A stretch of DNA of 64,000 nt from Candidatus Woesearchaeota archaeon (GTDB lineage Archaea; Nanobdellota; Nanobdellia; Woesearchaeales; GW2011-AR4), in the NCBI GenBank assembly GCA_018303625.1, contig JAGVXV010000010.1, forward strand, positions 13,411-77,410, read 5' to 3'. The number at the start of each line of letters is the position of its first letter. Position 1 is the stretch's first letter. Made by a program: the position numbers and the translations under genes. Shown here one piece after another: positions 46,049 to 52,558 of this stretch. A model generated the notes under the pieces. It was not told where the DNA came from. It ran no database searches and saw only the letters and a program-made list of their open reading frames with translations.

Positions 46049-47587
46049 CTAAACCTCCACTTCCCTCTTAACCACAACCTTCCCAGTAATTGACCTCAAC
46101 ATATGCCCAGTTATCTCTAAATCATAGAATTTCTTTAGCTCTAATCTTCCCTTAACCCCAACAATTATCGGATATGTTCCAAACTGCCTGCAGAATGTTG
46201 TGTTGCCGTCATAGATTTCCGCATAACAATTGGTTAAAACTGTTCCGTTTGGAATTACTCTCTGCAGCATTGGCCAGTCTATTTTCTGCCTTATTTCATT
46301 GCGCCATTTCCAGTATAATTTTTTATTTTTTCTTAAAAACTTGTCCCTGCCTTTGTTATATAATGAAGTGCCTTCAAATATTGCAACCTGCCTTATGTTA
46401 ATCCTCCTTAGCATCAATCCTTCATCATAAATTCTTTTCAACCATTTCATGTTCTCTTCATGGGTTTTCTTTGTTTCATTGCGAAGCCCGAAAATTATAT
46501 TGACTCCGGGCAAAAACCTGGGCATTCCGTCAGGGCCTCTTTCAGCCCCGTATTTGTTCAGTATCTTAACCGCTTCATAAGCAATCTGAGGAGGAGTATT
46601 CAATGTATTTGCCTTCACAACCTCTAAATCAAAAGACTCAACTCCAAAAGCGGCAATATTTCCCGAAGTGCAGTACTTAACAATTGCTTTTGTTATTTCA
46701 AAATCACTTTTCTTGTCCATAACAACCTTGACAGGATTTACATTATCAATATGCAAAACCTTAATATCAGGGCATTTGCCATTTATTTCTTTCAGTAATT
46801 CTGCGGCATAAGGCAAAGTATAGAAGCAGGTCTGCTTTCCAAGCCTAAAATAACGAGCGCCAAGATTGTAAAACTCAATAACCTCCTGCAAAACATCCTC
46901 TTTATCGCGAAACTCAACTCTGTTTTTCAGAGGCTCTGTGCAAAAGCTGCACTTTCCTATGTCGCAGCCGTGCCCAGTCTCAATCTCTATCATGCGATGA
47001 TCAGGAATCTGCTTTATGATTGAAGCCCCTTTTATTGAATGATTCTTCACATCAGAATATTTGAAATTAAACATTGAATAATCAACTTTGTCAAAAGCGC
47101 CTAAATCAGCTTTTTCAAAAAACTTGCCGCCAAAAAGCTGCGTTCCGAAAACAGCAGGTCCTGTCAAAATTTTCTCGCATCTTAAATCCTTAATCATTGG
47201 AATTATCTCATTTAGGGTGCCAGGCACTGCAGAAAGATATTTTCCCGGAACATGAACACCAAGGACAACAATCAAGGTACCTGTTTCAGCAAGAATTTTC
47301 CCAATATTTTTATAATTAATTGTCAGGTTATAAGTTGTAATGTCTGTTTTCTGCGACGGCCTTATTGCTCTTATTTCTGAATTGTTTTTTTTCCACAACC
47401 TCAAATCATCAATAGTTAAATAACAAGCATCTTCATTCAGGTATCCTGCTATGTACCTAGGATACGTGCCAAGATAAGGCGGAACTCCAAGCCCGGCCGG
47501 CTCATCAGTATAGCAGTCAAGTATAGTATATCCCATAGCTTGGAGTAATGCTTTTTCATTTAAAAAGGTATTTGAAAAAGAAAACAT
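46049..47587 (-). CDS. Radical SAM domain protein with N-terminal extension and C-terminal TRAM-like region
   Basis: 512 aa. It has a radical SAM cluster 'IETGHGCDIGKCSFC' (Cx4Cx2C). The C-terminal 'GVKGRLELKKFYDLEITGHMLRSITGKVVVKREVEV' resembles a TRAM/OB domain. Confidence 0.65.
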   Translation of the reverse strand: MFSFSNTFLNEKALLQAMGYTILDCYTDEPAGLGVPPYLGTYPRYIAGYLNEDACYLTIDDLRLWKKNNSEIRAIRPSQKTDITTYNLTINYKNIGKILAETGTLIVVLGVHVPGKYLSAVPGTLNEIIPMIKDLRCEKILTGPAVFGTQLFGGKFFEKADLGAFDKVDYSMFNFKYSDVKNHSIKGASIIKQIPDHRMIEIETGHGCDIGKCSFCTEPLKNRVEFRDKEDVLQEVIEFYNLGARYFRLGKQTCFYTLPYAAELLKEINGKCPDIKVLHIDNVNPVKVVMDKKSDFEITKAIVKYCTSGNIAAFGVESFDLEVVKANTLNTPPQIAYEAVKILNKYGAERGPDGMPRFLPGVNIIFGLRNETKKTHEENMKWLKRIYDEGLMLRRINIRQVAIFEGTSLYNKGRDKFLRKNKKLYWKWRNEIRQKIDWPMLQRVIPNGTVLTNCYAEIYDGNTTFCRQFGTYPIIVGVKGRLELKKFYDLEITGHMLRSITGKVVVKREVEV

Positions 47588-47616: not shown

Positions 47617-48231
47617 ATGTTGGGGATTGTATTGTATATTGCGTTAATCTTTATTTTATTGCTAGCTTTATTCCTCCTAAACTTCTACCGCGACCCTGAA
47701 AGAAAAATACCAAAAGGAAATAATATTGTTTCCCCGGCGGACGGCAGAATAATCAGAATAATAAAAATAAATTCCAATGAGAAAATAAAAATAAAAAAGG
47801 GAATTTTGGGAAAGATTGAAACATTGACAAAAGATGTCGCAAAGGAATGCTATCTGGTCTCAATTTTCATGTCGCCTTTTGATGTCCACATCAACAGGGC
47901 TCCAATAGATGGAAAAATAAAAAAAATAAAATATGAAAAAGGCAGGTTTTTCTCCGCCTTCAATTTTGAAAAATCGCTGAAAAACGAAAAAAATGAGATA
48001 TTAATAGAAAGTAAAATCGGCAATGTCAAGGCAATCCAGATAGCCGGTTTTCTTGCAAGGAAGATAAAATGCTTCGTGAAAGAAAATCAAAAAATTAATA
48101 AAGGGCAGAAAATAGGCGCGATTGTGTTGGGGTCGCAAGTGTCTTTGGTAATTCCCGCAAAAATAACATTAAAAATAAAAATAGGCGATAAAGTAAAAGC
48201 TGGCTCGACAATAATTGCTGGATTAAAATGA
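47617..48231 (+). CDS. psd: Phosphatidylserine (archaetidylserine) decarboxylase-like proenzyme
   Basis: An N-terminal TM, then 'FYRDPERKIPKGNNIVSPADGRI', 'FMSPFDVHINRAPIDGKI' and the C-terminal 'GAIVLGSQVS'. A small Psd with a GS cleavage-site-like motif. Confidence 0.7.
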   Translation: MLGIVLYIALIFILLLALFLLNFYRDPERKIPKGNNIVSPADGRIIRIIKINSNEKIKIKKGILGKIETLTKDVAKECYLVSIFMSPFDVHINRAPIDGKIKKIKYEKGRFFSAFNFEKSLKNEKNEILIESKIGNVKAIQIAGFLARKIKCFVKENQKINKGQKIGAIVLGSQVSLVIPAKITLKIKIGDKVKAGSTIIAGLK

Positions 48232-48797
48232 ACTCTCAACTCATATTTCTGTCAAACTTCCTCCGCAGCCCGAGGGAAATAGCGGCTGTTGCGCCAAGCT
48301 CAAGGTATGTGGTAGATAAGGTGATTAGCCAGATAGATTTTGGCAAAGCCAGGCTTATAGTTGAGTACGGGCCCGGAACAGGAATTCTGACAAAGGCCAT
48401 ACTTGAAAGGTTAAAGCCCAATGGAAAATTAGTATGCTTTGAGCTTAATTCAAAATTCTGCAGGCATCTTGCAAGCAGCCTTGATGATCCAAGGCTTACC
48501 ATTATCAATGATTCTGCGGAAAAGCTGGACTTTTACCTGGATAAGCTCAAGATAAAAGCAAAAATTGATTATGCGCTGTCTTCCATACCTTTTTTGCTTA
48601 TAAAAGACAGGCGCAAGCACTCCATCATCAGGAAAACAAAGGACAGCCTCGGCAAGAACGGAAAATTCATAGTGTATCAGCAGTATTCGTGGCACATAAG
48701 GAACTACCTGAGCTTTTACTTCAAAAAAATCTCAACGGGATTTGAAATAAGGAATATTCCCCCTACGTTTATCTACAGGTGTGAAAAGGCAGAATGA
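48228..48797 (+). CDS. Small class I SAM-dependent methyltransferase (KsgA/Erm-like fold; phospholipid N-methyltransferase-like)
   Basis: 189 aa. Motif I is 'LIVEYGPGTGILTKAIL' followed by 'LVCFELNSKF'. It lacks the rRNA-dimethylase NxPY motif (it has 'SSIPF'). It overlaps psd by 4 nt and the downstream gene by 4 nt, suggesting a translationally coupled operon. Confidence 0.5.
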   Translation: MNSQLIFLSNFLRSPREIAAVAPSSRYVVDKVISQIDFGKARLIVEYGPGTGILTKAILERLKPNGKLVCFELNSKFCRHLASSLDDPRLTIINDSAEKLDFYLDKLKIKAKIDYALSSIPFLLIKDRRKHSIIRKTKDSLGKNGKFIVYQQYSWHIRNYLSFYFKKISTGFEIRNIPPTFIYRCEKAE

Positions 48798-49831
48798 AGT
48801 TAAAAATACGCAATAGGAAATTTCCAATAACACTGACTTTGCTTAGGGTCCTTCTTGCCCCGATAGTGATGCTTGTTATCCTGTACGAAAGAAAAAACAT
48901 TGCCGCGTTCCTGTTTGTCCTTACAGCGCTGATAGGCTTCTTTGACAGCCTGATTGCGAAAAAAAAGAAAAGGTCGCAGTTAAGGTCGATAGTGGATTTA
49001 TTGGCAGATAAGTTGCTGGTAAATCTTACAGCTATAGCACTTTATTTTAAAGCCGTGCTTCCATTGTGGGTAACCTTGGTTTTTCTTGGCAGAGACCTGC
49101 TGACGGTTTCTGGAGCTTCAATCCTGCTTTACAAGGACAGGAGAAGGGAGTTTAAGCCGACTTTCTCAGGCAGGATTATGCTGTTTTTCCAGATAATGGC
49201 GTTTATCCCAGCCATATTGCAGACAATTGACTGGCTTCTTATTTACATTGCAGTTTTCTTAACCGCGGCATCGGCAGTTGAATGGGCCTTCAAGTCAGAG
49301 TTCAGGCTTGTAAGGAGGACTGATATGGATGAATTCAGGATTTCAAAATTAATAAAATTTTCAGATGTTTTTACATTAACAAATGTAGTTTCCGGGCTGA
49401 CTGCAATACTGTTTTCAGTAACCTACAAGCATAATCTGGCTGCAATAATGCTCGTAACTGCGGTTATTTTTGATTACCTGGACGGAAAAATCGCGCTTTT
49501 GACAAAAACAAGCAACGAATTCGGCAAAGAGCTTGACAGCCTGGCAGACACCATAAGCTTTGGCGTTGCGCCGGCTGTTTTTGGCTTTTCCCTGATACAA
49601 ACGCCGCTGGCGATTATAGCCTTCGCCATTTTTCTTTTTTGCGGCATTTTAAGGCTTGCAAGGTACAATATAATGGAGTTCAAGGGGGAATATCATGGTA
49701 TGCCGATAACACTCAACGGTGTTATTGTGCCTCTGGTTTATTTCCTCAAAATGCCGTTTGACTACTACCCATACCTTTACCTTATATTGAGTATCCTGAT
49801 GATTTCTTCCCTAAGGGTAAAGAAGCTATAG
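48794..49831 (+). CDS. CDP-alcohol phosphatidyltransferase with duplicated domain (N-terminal copy degenerate)
   Basis: The C-terminal half has the canonical 'DGKIALLTKTSNEFGKELDSLADTIS' (D-G-x2-A-R-x8-G-x3-D-x3-D). The N-terminal half has the related 'FDSLIAKKKKRSQLRSIVDLLADKLL'. About 8 TM helices. Confidence 0.7.
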   Translation: MKLKIRNRKFPITLTLLRVLLAPIVMLVILYERKNIAAFLFVLTALIGFFDSLIAKKKKRSQLRSIVDLLADKLLVNLTAIALYFKAVLPLWVTLVFLGRDLLTVSGASILLYKDRRREFKPTFSGRIMLFFQIMAFIPAILQTIDWLLIYIAVFLTAASAVEWAFKSEFRLVRRTDMDEFRISKLIKFSDVFTLTNVVSGLTAILFSVTYKHNLAAIMLVTAVIFDYLDGKIALLTKTSNEFGKELDSLADTISFGVAPAVFGFSLIQTPLAIIAFAIFLFCGILRLARYNIMEFKGEYHGMPITLNGVIVPLVYFLKMPFDYYPYLYLILSILMISSLRVKKL

Positions 49832-50854
49832 CTTCCTGCTGCTTGCCTTGGCCATAAAGGCGACCATAGTCAAATAAGCAAAACTCAGGGCTGCTATAAG
49901 GAAATGATTCTTATAAACAAAATTTATAAGTATTGTCAAGACAGTTATATAGCTCAATCCCACGGTAATCTTGCTTACGGTAGAAGTAAGCGTTTTGTTG
50001 TGCTTCTTGAGGTAGTATAGCTTTATGATTGCAGTTGAAACAGATGGAATTGCTGCCAAAATGCCGAATATAAAGGAGATATGCCCTGAGTAGATAAATG
50101 CTATAAGGGCTACAACAATAAATGTCCAGTCAGTAAAAGAATCAAAATTGCTGCCAAATTCCGTAACCTGCTTCATTAATCTTGCAGAAATGCCGTCAAT
50201 TTTGTCGCTCAGGGCTATAATCGCAAAAATCATAATGGAGATGTTGGTCTTGTCCTCAAAAACAAAGATGACAAAAACAGGGATTAGCACAAGCCTTGTT
50301 AAGGTTATCAAATTAGGTATGTTAAGCATCTTGTCCTTCACGAGATTGCTGAATTTGATTAGGTAGTCAAGCCCGGAGATTACTGTAAATAAAACCGCGA
50401 TGAGCATTACATGCCATGCAAACTGGAATTTCAATATAACAAGCAAAATGCCTATTGTCTGTGTTATTGTTTTCAGCTTGCCTAAAATGCTCGCGCTCAC
50501 TACAGTGCCTTTCGAGACAAATATCAGCCTCAGGCCTGTTATAATCCATTCCCTCGCTATTATTACGACAACCATCCACAAAGGAATGCCTTTGCCCATG
50601 AAAAAAATCAGGGCTACGGAAATCAAAAGCTTATCTGCAATAGGGTCTATCAGCTTCCCAATTTCCGTAATTTCCTTTCTTTTCCTCGCTATATAGCCGT
50701 CCAGCGCATCAGATAATGATAAGATTATGAAGATAAATGCCGCAAAATATTCTATATATGGTAAATTCAAAACAAGAAAATAAACAAACAGGGGTATGAG
50801 CAATACCCTGATGACCGTAATTTGATTGGGTTTTGAAAAAATATCCTTTGCCAC
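49826..50854 (-). CDS. Tandem-domain CDP-alcohol phosphatidyltransferase (two complete catalytic motifs)
   Basis: Two full motifs: 'SDALDGYIARKRKEITEIGKLIDPIADKL' and 'SDKIDGISARLMKQVTEFGSNFDSFTDWT'. 342 aa, polytopic. Confidence 0.75.
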   Translation of the reverse strand: MAKDIFSKPNQITVIRVLLIPLFVYFLVLNLPYIEYFAAFIFIILSLSDALDGYIARKRKEITEIGKLIDPIADKLLISVALIFFMGKGIPLWMVVVIIAREWIITGLRLIFVSKGTVVSASILGKLKTITQTIGILLVILKFQFAWHVMLIAVLFTVISGLDYLIKFSNLVKDKMLNIPNLITLTRLVLIPVFVIFVFEDKTNISIMIFAIIALSDKIDGISARLMKQVTEFGSNFDSFTDWTFIVVALIAFIYSGHISFIFGILAAIPSVSTAIIKLYYLKKHNKTLTSTVSKITVGLSYITVLTILINFVYKNHFLIAALSFAYLTMVAFMAKASSRKL

Positions 50855-50903: not shown

Positions 50904-51539
50904 ATGAAATATGATCTCCATATGCATACACATTACTCCAAATGCGGCAATCTAAAGCCGGAACTGCTGCTGAAAATCGCGAAAAAACGCGGCCTGGACG
51001 GCATTGCAGTTACCGACCATAACACCATTAAAGGTGCATTAGAGGTAAAAAAACTGAATAAAAATAAGAAATTTGAAGTCATTGTCGGTGAGGAAATATC
51101 CACCAATGTTGGGGAAGTCTTGGCCTATTACTTAAAAAAACAGGTAAAAAAAGGTGATTTTTTCTCAGTTGTTGATGAGGTAAAAAAGCAAGGCGCTTTG
51201 GCTTCATTATCGCATCCTTTCAGGACATCGTTAAACCCAAACCACCGCTTTAAGCTCCCAATAGAAAAAATTAAAAATAGGGTAGATGCCATGGAGGTTT
51301 TTAATGCAAGGAACCTGCCAGGGAACAATGAAATGTCCCAGAGAACGGCAAAAAAATTAAATTTGGCAGGAACGGCAGGCTCTGATGCGCATTTTTCCTT
51401 TGAAATAGCAAAAGCTTACACAATTTTTGATGGTAATTTAAGGCAAGCAATTAAAAAAAATGAGACAAAATTCAAAGGAACAATAATTTTTGGCCCTTTT
51501 GGGGGCTTACTGAGCTTTTTGAGAAACAGGTTTTTGTAA
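50904..51539 (+). CDS. PHP-domain metal-dependent phosphoesterase
   Basis: 'MKYDLHMHTHYSKCGNLKPELLLKIAKKRGLDGIAVTDHNTIKGA', 'SHPF', 'GSDAH'. These are PHP His/Asp ligands. Confidence 0.7.
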   Translation: MKYDLHMHTHYSKCGNLKPELLLKIAKKRGLDGIAVTDHNTIKGALEVKKLNKNKKFEVIVGEEISTNVGEVLAYYLKKQVKKGDFFSVVDEVKKQGALASLSHPFRTSLNPNHRFKLPIEKIKNRVDAMEVFNARNLPGNNEMSQRTAKKLNLAGTAGSDAHFSFEIAKAYTIFDGNLRQAIKKNETKFKGTIIFGPFGGLLSFLRNRFL

Positions 51540-51548
51540 AGAGGCAAA

Positions 51549-52091
51549 ATGATATTTATTTTAATTGTAAAGGCTTTCTATTTCATGCTTCCGGCATATT
51601 TCGCCAACATGGCCCCCGTTATTGTAAAAAGGCTGTTCAAAAACCTGGCAATTGCTATAGATTCCGGCAGAAGATTTGGCAATAAGCCAATCCTTGGGAG
51701 CAACAAGACGTGGCGCGGCCTGGTTTTCGGGATTATTTTTGCGATTGTCATCTCATTTTTGCAATTTTTATTTTATAATAATAATATTTTTGCGGAAATA
51801 TCTTTGGTGGATTATTCCAATTGGCTGTTATTTGGGTTTTTAATGGGCTTCGGTGCTTTGCTTGGAGACATGACAAAAAGTTTTTTTAAAAGAAGGCTGG
51901 GTTATGCTCCGGGAAAGCCTTTTATCCCGTTTGACCAGCTTGACTTTGTCGTAGGAGCCCTGCTTTTTACTTACCCCTTGGTTAAACTGCCGATAGGGCT
52001 TGTAATCACAACAATTTTGCTGAGTTTTTTTTTAGATATTGCTGTAAACCATATATCCTATTACCTCAAAATAAGGAACGAGAAGTGGTAA
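51549..52091 (+). CDS. carS: CDP-archaeol synthase (CarS)
   Basis: 180 aa with about 5 TM helices. 'GNKPILGSNKTWRGLVFG' and the C-terminal 'PFDQLDFVVGALL' are CarS signatures. Confidence 0.8.
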   Translation: MIFILIVKAFYFMLPAYFANMAPVIVKRLFKNLAIAIDSGRRFGNKPILGSNKTWRGLVFGIIFAIVISFLQFLFYNNNIFAEISLVDYSNWLLFGFLMGFGALLGDMTKSFFKRRLGYAPGKPFIPFDQLDFVVGALLFTYPLVKLPIGLVITTILLSFFLDIAVNHISYYLKIRNEKW

Positions 52092-52558
52092 TTTAAAAGG
52101 AATAGGAGATTTGCTGCAATAAGAAAAATAGAGTTATAAAAAAGGATTTTATAATGATTTTTCTCCCTTATGCCATATATCAAAGAGGCTGTCGGGATTC
52201 CTAACAGCAAAATTAAAGCTGATTCTATGGCAAAGAGGCTTGTGTTTATTGAGCTTAAAAAAAACAAAACCCCGAGTAGGGCATAGGTCAGCAGGGATTT
52301 TTTAAATAAGCCCCATTTTTTAAATTCAATAAGCAATAAAAATAAAAAAAGTATTATTAAAATTAAAAAATAGGAAAAATCATGGAGATAGTACAATAAA
52401 AAAAATATGAAAATGGCAAATAAAAAAATCCTCCTCAACAGGATAAAATATTTTTTCCCGGGCTTCTGCTCTTCAGGCGCTATTTTTACCAGCAGTATGC
52501 CTACTGCCAGGCCTAAAAAAGAGATAAAAGAAGCGAGAAAATAGTTTATGGATTGCAT
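52061..52558 (-). CDS. membrane protein, hypothetical
   Basis: 165 aa and highly hydrophobic (about 5 TM helices). No motif. It overlaps the carS 3' end. Confidence 0.35.
   Translation of the reverse strand: MQSINYFLASFISFLGLAVGILLVKIAPEEQKPGKKYFILLRRIFLFAIFIFFLLYYLHDFSYFLILIILFLFLLLIEFKKWGLFKKSLLTYALLGVLFFLSSINTSLFAIESALILLLGIPTASLIYGIREKNHYKILFYNSIFLIAANLLFLLNYHFSFLILR

What the first reader, a model, noticed from the sequence alone, without database searches (positions are those of the whole stretch)
48794..50854. Two convergent genes each encoding tandem CDP-alcohol phosphatidyltransferase domains
49826-50854 carries two complete D-G-x2-A-R...G-x3-D-x3-D motifs in one polypeptide. 48794-49831 carries a canonical C-terminal motif plus a degenerate N-terminal copy. 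Internally duplicated CDP-OH phosphotransferases are uncommon. They may be fused bifunctional head-group transferases, or a pseudo-dimer.
Basis: seen in the sequence. Interest (0 to 1): 0.5.

Follow-up and report, generated by a model that had tools for sequence, protein, structure and literature searches.

The report
Fused two-domain archaeal lipid head-group transferases
Two neighbouring genes of a tiny symbiotic-type archaeon (Woesearchaeota) each encode two copies of a membrane-lipid head-group enzyme fused into one chain, one with a dead first copy and one with two intact catalytic sites; this layout is standard in that lineage, and I found no published description of it.

Summary
ORF A (48794-49831, +, 345 aa) and ORF B (49826-50854, -, 342 aa) are convergent, and each holds two CDP-alcohol phosphatidyltransferase (CAPT, PF01066) domains.

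- **ORF B:** it carries two complete signature motifs, both invariant in 119 homologues. The N-half is a bona fide PgsA: it scores above the curated cutoff and keeps all glycerol-3-phosphate ligands of S. aureus PgsA. The C-half is a diverged paralogue that has lost the phosphate-binding basic triad and fits no curated family.
- **ORF A:** this is a fusion, not an internal duplication. The N-half is PgsA-like and catalytically degenerate across the family. The C-half is a PssA-type (archaetidyl)serine synthase, and in this protein the signature Arg is Leu.
- **Distribution and context:** both architectures occur in many Woesearchaeota/Nanoarchaeota proteins (the best 120 hits of each search). 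They lie in a conserved cluster: radical SAM, psd, N-methyltransferase, A, B, PHP phosphoesterase, CarS.

Best reading: these are single-chain versions of the obligate CAPT dimer. A has one active site. B has two, and its second acceptor is unknown. Pseudo-dimer geometry could not be measured. This is a new variant of a known kind, of moderate interest.

The parts
48794..49831 (+). ORF A, 345 aa: tandem CAPT made of a degenerate PgsA-like N-half and a PssA-type C-half
   Evidence: 120-sequence family alignment A2. AF2 pLDDT 84, pTM 0.84.
48794..49318 (+). A_N domain (aa 1-175): six helices, PgsA-like, catalytically degenerate
48935..49009 (+). Degenerate signature of A_N (aa 48-72), GFFDSLIAKKKKRSQLRSIVDLLAD
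   Evidence: Family columns: D1 = S/A/G; D2 = E92/D24; G2 = S in 119/120; D3 = D82/S21/N11; only D4 (D72) is invariant.
49319..49831 (+). A_C domain (aa 176-345): PssA-type (archaetidyl)serine synthase half
49472..49549 (+). Catalytic signature of A_C (aa 227-252), DYLDGKIALLTKTSNEFGKELDSLAD, with the signature Arg replaced by Leu235
   Evidence: D227, D230, G231, A234, G244, D248 and D252 are invariant. Position 235 is K68/R40 in the family but non-basic in the window protein and 11 relatives. 10 of those 12 have K/R at 238, against 27 of 108 of the rest.
49826..50854 (-). ORF B, 342 aa (GTG start): tandem CAPT made of a PgsA N-half and a diverged paralogous C-half
   Evidence: 100% identical to public protein P0001, named Candidatus Woesearchaeota. 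AF2 pLDDT 86, pTM 0.64.
50339..50854 (-). B_N domain (aa 1-172): PgsA, an (archaetidyl)glycerophosphate synthase
   Evidence: TIGR00560 139.5 bits versus cutoff 109.1. S. aureus PgsA 7DRJ E 3e-27; Foldseek of the whole model gives 37-38% identity to 7DRJ. Keeps N10, R57, K126 and K75, R101, R109, K128, Y164.
50633..50710 (-). Signature motif of B_N (aa 49-74)
   Evidence: D49, D52, G53, A56, R57, G66, D70 and D74 are invariant in the family alignment.
49826..50338 (-). B_C domain (aa 173-342): uncharacterised CAPT subfamily with an intact catalytic motif and an altered acceptor site
   Evidence: Best NCBIfam hits are 52-56 bits, far below cutoffs. K83->W243, R110->P270, K137->S/A/N/T297. A stand-alone relative, P0405, exists in L089.
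50129..50206 (-). Signature motif of B_C (aa 217-242)
   Evidence: D217, D220, G221, G234, D238 and D242 are invariant; R225 is R in 119/120.
47617..48231 (+). Archaetidylserine/phosphatidylserine decarboxylase (psd), first gene of the psd-methyltransferase-A operon
   Evidence: PF02666 E 6.6e-51. ATGA overlap with the next gene. Syntenic in L004, L005, L007 and L088.
48228..48797 (+). PmtA/OlsG-like lipid N-methyltransferase
   Evidence: OlsG 2e-29 and PmtA 7e-17, both below their cutoffs. ATGA overlaps on both sides.
50904..51539 (+). PHP-family phosphoesterase, divergent from B; candidate lipid-phosphate (AGP) phosphatase
   Evidence: PF02811/PF13263. Conserved in this slot in L001, L006 and L007. 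In L089 the slot holds a PAP2 domain fused to CarS instead.
51549..52091 (+). CarS, CDP-archaeol synthase, which makes the CDP-activated donor for all CAPT sites
   Evidence: PF01864 2e-37. PRK04032 155 bits versus cutoff 148.

Best explanation
Both genes encode 12-helix, single-chain versions of the normally homodimeric CDP-alcohol phosphatidyltransferase. They belong to the lipid head-group gene cluster of a Woesearchaeota (DPANN) archaeon.

**ORF A.** It has one active site. Its C-half is a PssA-type enzyme that transfers the archaetidyl (or phosphatidyl) group from the CarS product to serine. This feeds the decarboxylase and the N-methyltransferase encoded in the same operon. Its N-half is a PgsA-like domain that has lost the metal and CDP site. 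It still keeps the dimer-interface helices, the TM4-5 loop and basic residues (R100, K127). I infer that it acts as the built-in partner protomer and may supply residues in trans.

**ORF B.** It has two active sites. The N-half makes (archaetidyl)glycerophosphate from glycerol-3-phosphate. The C-half is a paralogue that keeps every catalytic residue but has lost the Lys/Arg/Lys triad that binds the acceptor's phosphate. It most likely transfers the lipid to a different, non-phosphorylated alcohol. That acceptor is unknown; archaetidylglycerol (giving a cardiolipin) or a neutral polyol are candidates.

**Shown:** the architecture, motif states, fold, topology, family-wide conservation and synteny.

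**Inferred:** intramolecular pseudo-dimer packing, the trans role of A_N, and the identity of the second B reaction.
For: - **Two CAPT domains per protein:**
- **Motif conservation:** both B signatures and the A_C signature Asp/Gly are invariant, while the A_N signature is degenerate family-wide.
- **Relationships of the halves:** hhalign scores are B_N~B_C 146, A_N~B_N 111, and A_C against the others only 37-60. An NJ tree puts B_N among single-domain PgsA with S. aureus PgsA, B_C in its own clade with stand-alone relatives, A_N in a third clade, and A_C with M. jannaschii PSS.
- **Topology:** K+R counts inside versus outside are 29:5 for A and 17:4 for B. This places both motifs of each protein on the cytoplasmic side, in parallel orientation.
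- **Acceptor sites:** S. aureus PgsA ligands (PMC8640168) are all kept in B_N. In B_C they are replaced by W243, P270 and S/A/N/T297.
- **Conservation pattern in A_N:** the CDP-pocket helices TM1-2 are least conserved (0.61-0.64). The TM4-5 loop (0.89), TM5 and TM4 are most conserved.
- **Published precedent:** CAPTs dimerise through TM3/TM4 and use residues of the partner protomer at the acceptor or anion site (PMC8640168, PMC9385802, PMC8633023).
- **Synteny:** A sits in an ATGA-coupled operon with psd and the methyltransferase. The cluster is conserved in distant relatives.
Against: - No coordinates or PAE could be inspected, so pseudo-dimer packing rests only on pTM. That value is just 0.64 for B.
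- B_C helices 4-6 are poorly conserved (top-residue frequency 0.45-0.59). This is unusual for a specific acceptor pocket and leaves its function open.
- In some relatives A_N keeps D at the D2 and D3 positions, so residual activity cannot be excluded from sequence.
- The Arg-to-Leu change in the A_C signature of this particular protein could lower or alter activity.
- No biochemical data exist for any member.
Confidence: 0.6

Rival explanations
1. Plain bifunctional fusions. All four domains are independent enzymes joined only for co-expression, and A_N is also active with a non-standard motif. The halves do not pair with each other; each pairs with its twin in a second chain, giving a dimer of tandems.
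For: Fusions of consecutive pathway enzymes are common. B has two intact sites. pTM for B is only 0.64. A_N-type domains with an intact motif exist in other tandem proteins, P0247, P0248 and P0262.
Against: A_N lacks D1 in every homologue, has Ser for G2 in 119/120, and D3 is variable. Its CDP-pocket helices are the least conserved part of the protein. The inter-domain linker of B is only about 7 residues, and pTM for A is 0.84. Both fit a compact single-chain bundle.
Confidence: 0.15
2. B_C is a second copy doing the same PgsA reaction, or a regulatory or structural half with a fossil motif. B would then be functionally a covalent PgsA homodimer.
For: B_N and B_C are each other's closest relatives. 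B_C helices 4-6 evolve fast. Public sources name the whole protein PgsA.
Against: A fossil motif would not stay invariant at seven positions (the eighth, A224, is A102/S18) across homologues of about 50% identity. The three basic residues that hold the glycerol-3-phosphate phosphate are replaced family-wide by W, P and small polar residues. A stand-alone B_C-type gene occupies the B slot in L089, with no PgsA half next to it.
Confidence: 0.15
3. Assembly or annotation artefact: two adjacent single-domain genes read as one because of a missed stop or a frameshift.
For: Metagenome assemblies do contain such errors. L088 shows the opposite error, a B homologue split into 93-aa and 298-aa ORFs. 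P0257 looks like a chimera.
Against: The same roughly 340-350 aa architecture recurs in the best 120 hits of each search, from many independent samples and sources. The 100% identical P0001 was seen on 33 contigs. The linker region of A is itself conserved.
Confidence: 0.01

Closest known systems
Bacterial PgsA (phosphatidylglycerophosphate synthase), e.g. S. aureus PgsA, PDB 7DRJ/7DRK
   Same: B_N scores above the TIGR00560 cutoff. Foldseek of the whole B model gives 37-38% identity to 7DRJ. The fold is the same, and every CDP-DAG and glycerol-3-phosphate ligand is conserved.
   Different: The known enzyme is a six-helix protein of about 190 aa that forms a homodimer. Here it is the first half of a 12-helix chain whose second half is a diverged paralogue. 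The likely donor is CDP-archaeol, because CarS lies next to it.
PssA-type phosphatidylserine/archaetidylserine synthase, e.g. M. jannaschii PSS, PDB 7B1K/7POW
   Different: MjPSS has eight helices and is a homodimer. A_C has six helices and is preceded by a dead PgsA-like domain. The signature Arg is Leu in this protein. The archaetidylserine synthase models NF038087 and TIGR04217 are not reached.
IPCT-DIPPS bifunctional enzyme (PDB 4MND) and AF2299
   Same: A CAPT domain fused to another domain in one polypeptide, acting on consecutive steps.
   Different: There the partner is a soluble cytidylyltransferase and the CAPT domains still homodimerise. Here the partner is a second CAPT membrane domain.
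CMP-forming (CAP-type) cardiolipin synthases
   Same: They use a CAPT site with a non-phosphorylated lipid alcohol (PG) as acceptor. This is the kind of acceptor that the B_C site changes would suit. JGI labels two B_C-type proteins 'cardiolipin synthase'.
   Different: The NCBIfam ClsA model scores only 56 bits against a 240 cutoff, and B_N scores higher on it than B_C does. There is no positive evidence for this acceptor.

Membership tests
CAPT superfamily (Pfam PF01066) | Signature D1xxD2G1xxAR...G2xxxD3xxxD4 | tested here: met
   Complete in B_N and B_C. Seven of the eight signature positions are invariant in B_C, and A224 is A102/S18. A_C has all Asp and Gly, but Arg is Leu in this protein (K/R in 108 of 120 relatives). 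A_N does not meet it: D1 is absent, G2 is Ser and D3 is variable.
CAPT superfamily (Pfam PF01066) | Six-transmembrane-helix fold with the signature on helices 2 and 3, facing the cytoplasm | tested here: met
CAPT superfamily (Pfam PF01066) | Dimer through TM3/TM4, here expected as an intramolecular pseudo-dimer | not testable with these tools
   No coordinates or PAE were returned. The only hints are pTM 0.84 (A) and 0.64 (B).
PgsA (TIGR00560) | Score above the curated equivalog cutoff of 109.1 bits | tested here: met
   B_N scores 139.5 bits. B_C (52.6) and A_N (53.6) fall below the cutoff.
PgsA (TIGR00560) | Glycerol-3-phosphate phosphate ligands K83, R110, R118, K137, Y181 (S. aureus numbering, PMC8640168) | tested here: met
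   B_N has K75, R101, R109, K128 and Y164, each at 110-120 of 120. B_C does not: W243, P270, K278, S/A/N/T297, Y/F333. A_N is partial: K73 and R100 are kept, while S109, M129 and W164 replace the rest.
PssA (TIGR00473) | Score above the curated cutoff of 107 bits | tested here: met
   A_C scores 128.9 bits and the whole protein 131.8.
Archaetidylserine synthase (NF038087 / TIGR04217) | Score above the curated cutoffs of 240 / 200 bits | tested here: not met
   Scores are 127 and 110 bits. A_C covers only model positions 2-171 of 216, so the last two helices of the archaeal type are missing.
CMP-forming cardiolipin synthase (NF053678) | Score above the curated cutoff of 240 bits | tested here: not met
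   B_C scores 56.5 bits over model positions 1-95 only. Stand-alone B_C-type proteins score 38-57 bits.
Archaetidylinositol-phosphate synthase (NF040950) | Score above the curated cutoff of 180 bits | tested here: not met
   B_C 38.7, B_N 42.3, A_C 30.9 bits.

The most novel reading that the evidence does not exclude
Woesearchaeota have turned the obligate CAPT homodimer into covalent heterodimers whose halves have divided the work. In A, a pseudo-enzyme half completes or gates the serine site of the active half in trans. In B, a PgsA site and a new CAPT subfamily site sit on one 12-helix scaffold and make two different head groups, possibly glycerophosphate lipid and then a CMP-forming archaeal cardiolipin. 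Together with CarS, Psd, a methyltransferase and a PHP phosphatase, this forms a compact kit for rebuilding the head groups of lipid cores that these cells cannot make themselves.
Probability: 0.25. Interest if true: 0.65.

Novelty: new variant of a known kind. Interest (0 to 1): 0.45.

Why it matters
All solved CAPT enzymes are dimers, and partner-protomer residues reach the acceptor site. What dimerisation is for has been hard to separate from catalysis.

Natural single-chain heterodimers give ready-made asymmetric constructs for that question. One has a dead half and one has two different live halves. The B_C clade is a CAPT subfamily with no assigned head group.

The setting also matters. 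Woesearchaeota are reported to lack the core ether-lipid synthases (PMC8421398). Yet they conserve this CarS-CAPT-Psd cluster, which points to head-group remodelling of acquired lipids.

Automatic annotation hides all of this, because it calls the proteins simply PgsA and PssA.

Tried and rejected
1. **GTDB genome scan with the B alignment.** It gave no taxonomic range for the tandem form. It showed only that B_N is up to 50% identical to Firmicutes PgsA.
2. **AlphaFold-DB fold search.** The library was unavailable.
3. **'Stand-alone' B_C and B_N proteins in the representative library.** Most are fragments from contigs of about 1-2 kb or frameshifted genes (L088). Only P0405 in L089 is convincingly a complete solo gene.
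4. **Model coordinates.** They are not exposed, so the halves could not be superposed on the 7DRJ dimer.
5. **Literature searches for tandem, fused or pseudo-dimeric CAPTs and for Woesearchaeota head-group enzymes.** None described this architecture.
6. **The conserved neighbouring radical SAM.** It has no significant NCBIfam or PDB assignment, so a tetraether-synthase identity was not supported.
7. **The extracellular-side INFxYK motif of B_C.** I considered it as an acceptor site and rejected this, because topology puts it on the outer face.
Full report
**Observation.** ORF A (48794-49831, +, 345 aa, ATG) and ORF B (49826-50854, -, 342 aa, GTG) are present exactly as described. They converge, and their stop codons overlap inside the palindrome AAGCTATAGCTT, so both proteins end in -KL. 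Pfam PF01066 matches two separate stretches in each protein (E 8.9e-34 and 1.8e-63). Each half still hits CAPT families when scanned alone.

The B motifs at aa 49-74 and 217-242 are both complete. The A motif at aa 227-252 has every Asp and Gly, but Leu replaces the signature Arg. The A copy at aa 48-72 is degenerate.

**Source and spread.** ORF B is 100% identical to a public protein named Candidatus Woesearchaeota, seen on 33 contigs. The best 120 hits of each search are almost all about 340-350 aa and come from many samples. Where named, they are Woesearchaeota or Nanoarchaeota, and they carry only the generic labels PgsA or PssA.

I searched 1.84 billion 50%-identity representatives with the B profile. 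Full-length tandem proteins made up only about a dozen of the best 150 clusters; the rest were single-domain PgsA-like proteins or fragments. The fused form is therefore rare in the superfamily but recurs widely in this lineage. It is not an assembly artefact.

**Anatomy of the halves.**
- *Family B (119 sequences):* D49, D52, G53, A56, R57, G66, D70, D74 and D217, D220, G221, G234, D238, D242 are invariant. R225 is R in 119/120 and A224 is A102/S18.
- *Family A (120 sequences), C-half:* D227, D230, G231, A234, G244, D248 and D252 are invariant. The signature Arg position is K or R in 108.
  - It is non-basic in the window protein and 11 relatives.
  - 10 of those 12 have K/R three residues later, against 27 of 108 of the others.
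  - This may be a shifted basic residue, but the sequences are not phylogenetically independent.
- *Family A, N-half:* D1 is S/A/G, D2 is E92/D24, G2 is Ser in 119/120, and D3 is D82/S21/N11. Only D4 is invariant.
- *Profile comparisons:* B_N~B_C scores 146 (28% identity), A_N~B_N 111, A_N~B_C 56, and A_C against the others 37-60.
- *NJ tree of halves:* four clades appear.
  - B_N groups with single-domain PgsA and S. aureus PgsA.
  - B_C groups with stand-alone relatives.
  - A_N groups with intact-motif domains from other tandem proteins (P0247, P0248, P0262).
  - A_C groups with M. jannaschii PSS.

So B is a diverged internal duplication of PgsA. A is a fusion of a decayed PgsA-like domain with PssA.

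**Fold and topology.** AF2 models have pLDDT 86 (B, pTM 0.64) and 84 (A, pTM 0.84). Each half has six helices, and the signatures lie on helices 2 and 3.
- Foldseek matches the B model to S. aureus PgsA 7DRJ at 37-38% identity.
- Lys+Arg counts in loops are 29 inside to 5 outside for A, and 17 to 4 for B.

This gives an N-in, 12-helix topology. Both halves are parallel and all motifs face the cytoplasm.

Intramolecular TM3/TM4 pairing is an inference from pTM and from the short linker (about 7 residues in B).

**Substrate sites.** In S. aureus PgsA, the phosphate of glycerol-3-phosphate is held by K83, R110, R118, K137 and Y181. CDP-DAG is held by N5, F58, R65 and K135. The dimer forms through TM3-TM4' and TM4-TM4', and R110' and Y181' of the partner lie next to the site (PMC8640168).
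- *B_N* keeps all of them: K75, R101, R109, K128, Y164, N10, R57, K126.
- *B_C* keeps N181 and R225. It has W243 (W100/F18), P270 (110/120) and S/A/N/T297 in place of the basic triad. No curated family is reached by B_C or by stand-alone B_C-type proteins. Its helices 4-6 are the least conserved part of B.
- *A_N* keeps K73, R100 and K/R127. Its CDP-pocket helices 1-2 are the least conserved (0.61-0.64), and its TM4-5 loop RREFKPT is the most conserved (0.89).

Published structures show partner-protomer residues acting at the acceptor or anion site of CAPTs, with activity depending on them (PMC9385802; PMC8633023).

**Context.** psd, a PmtA/OlsG-like methyltransferase and A are linked by ATGA overlaps. 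B is divergent from a PHP phosphoesterase, which is followed by CarS. The order radical SAM, psd, (methyltransferase), A, B, PHP, CarS, small membrane ORF, RpiB recurs in relatives of about 50-60% identity.

In L089 the B slot holds a complete stand-alone B_C-type gene, 43 nt from a PAP2-CarS fusion. B_C-type enzymes can therefore exist without the PgsA half, and a phosphatase function is repeatedly tied to this slot.

**Interpretation.** The best reading is single-chain CAPT dimers.
- A is a one-site pseudo-heterodimer that makes the serine lipid for the Psd/methyltransferase branch.
- B is a two-site enzyme that makes the glycerophosphate lipid at B_N and an unidentified product at B_C, from a non-phosphorylated acceptor.

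I put about 0.6 on this overall. Confidence is near-certain for the architecture, about 0.6 for the scaffold or trans role of A_N, and about 0.2 for any specific B_C acceptor. The rivals are listed with their tests: independent bifunctional fusions forming dimers of tandems; B_C as a redundant or fossil site; and an assembly artefact.

**Novelty.** No solved structure contains two CAPT domains in one chain. Full-text searches found no description of tandem CAPTs or of these Woesearchaeota enzymes. The sequences are public but labelled only PgsA or PssA. This is a new variant of a known enzyme kind, of moderate interest. Its main value is as a natural asymmetric dimer and as a pointer to an unassigned CAPT subfamily and to DPANN lipid head-group remodelling.

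Noticed in passing
window 50904-51539 (+); L089 3981-4958: A PHP-family phosphoesterase sits between B and CarS in most relatives. In L089 the slot instead has a PAP2 phosphatase domain fused to CarS. Two unrelated phosphatase folds in the same slot suggest the missing archaeal (archaetidyl)glycerophosphate phosphatase.
   Followed up: partly
window 46049-47587 (-): A 512-aa radical SAM protein lies next to psd in the window contig and in the relatives' contigs examined (L004-L007, L088). It has no meaningful NCBIfam or PDB match (best E 9e-7 and 0.0035). It may be a lipid-modifying enzyme.
   Followed up: partly
window 47617-49831 (+): psd, a PmtA/OlsG-like N-methyltransferase and ORF A are joined by ATGA start/stop overlaps. 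This implies a serine to ethanolamine to N-methylated head-group pathway in an archaeon.
   Followed up: partly
window 52061-52558 (-): A 165-aa polytopic membrane ORF with no family match is conserved beside CarS, between CarS and RpiB, in the contexts that show this region (L001, L004, L006, L007, L088, L089).
   Followed up: no
L005 5245-5871; L007 9053-9610: PlsC-type acyltransferases (PF01553), a bacterial-type glycerolipid enzyme, sit inside or beside the same cluster in some Woesearchaeota. L005 also has a stand-alone 216-aa CAPT and a VTT/DedA protein.
   Followed up: no
proteins P0247, P0248, P0262/P0408, P0289: Other tandem CAPT types exist. Some join an A_N-type domain with an intact motif to PgsA, in either order, and one is PgsA+PgsA. 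One (P0262) is labelled as from an Alphaproteobacteria MAG. CAPT domain fusion seems to have happened repeatedly.
   Followed up: partly
window 49823-49834: The stop codons of the convergent genes overlap in a perfect 12-nt palindrome, AAGCTATAGCTT, which gives both proteins the same C-terminal -KL.
   Followed up: yes
L088 3813-4932; protein P0257: A B homologue is split into overlapping 93-aa and 298-aa ORFs, which indicates a frameshift or pseudogene. A 375-aa protein joins most of A to B_C and is probably an assembly chimera.
   Followed up: partly
window as a whole (e.g. 51549-52091 CarS): Woesearchaeota are reported to lack GGGP and DGGGP synthases (PMC8421398). They nevertheless conserve CarS plus three or four CAPT sites, which fits re-activation and re-decoration of scavenged lipid cores. 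B_N is up to 50% identical to Firmicutes PgsA.
   Followed up: no
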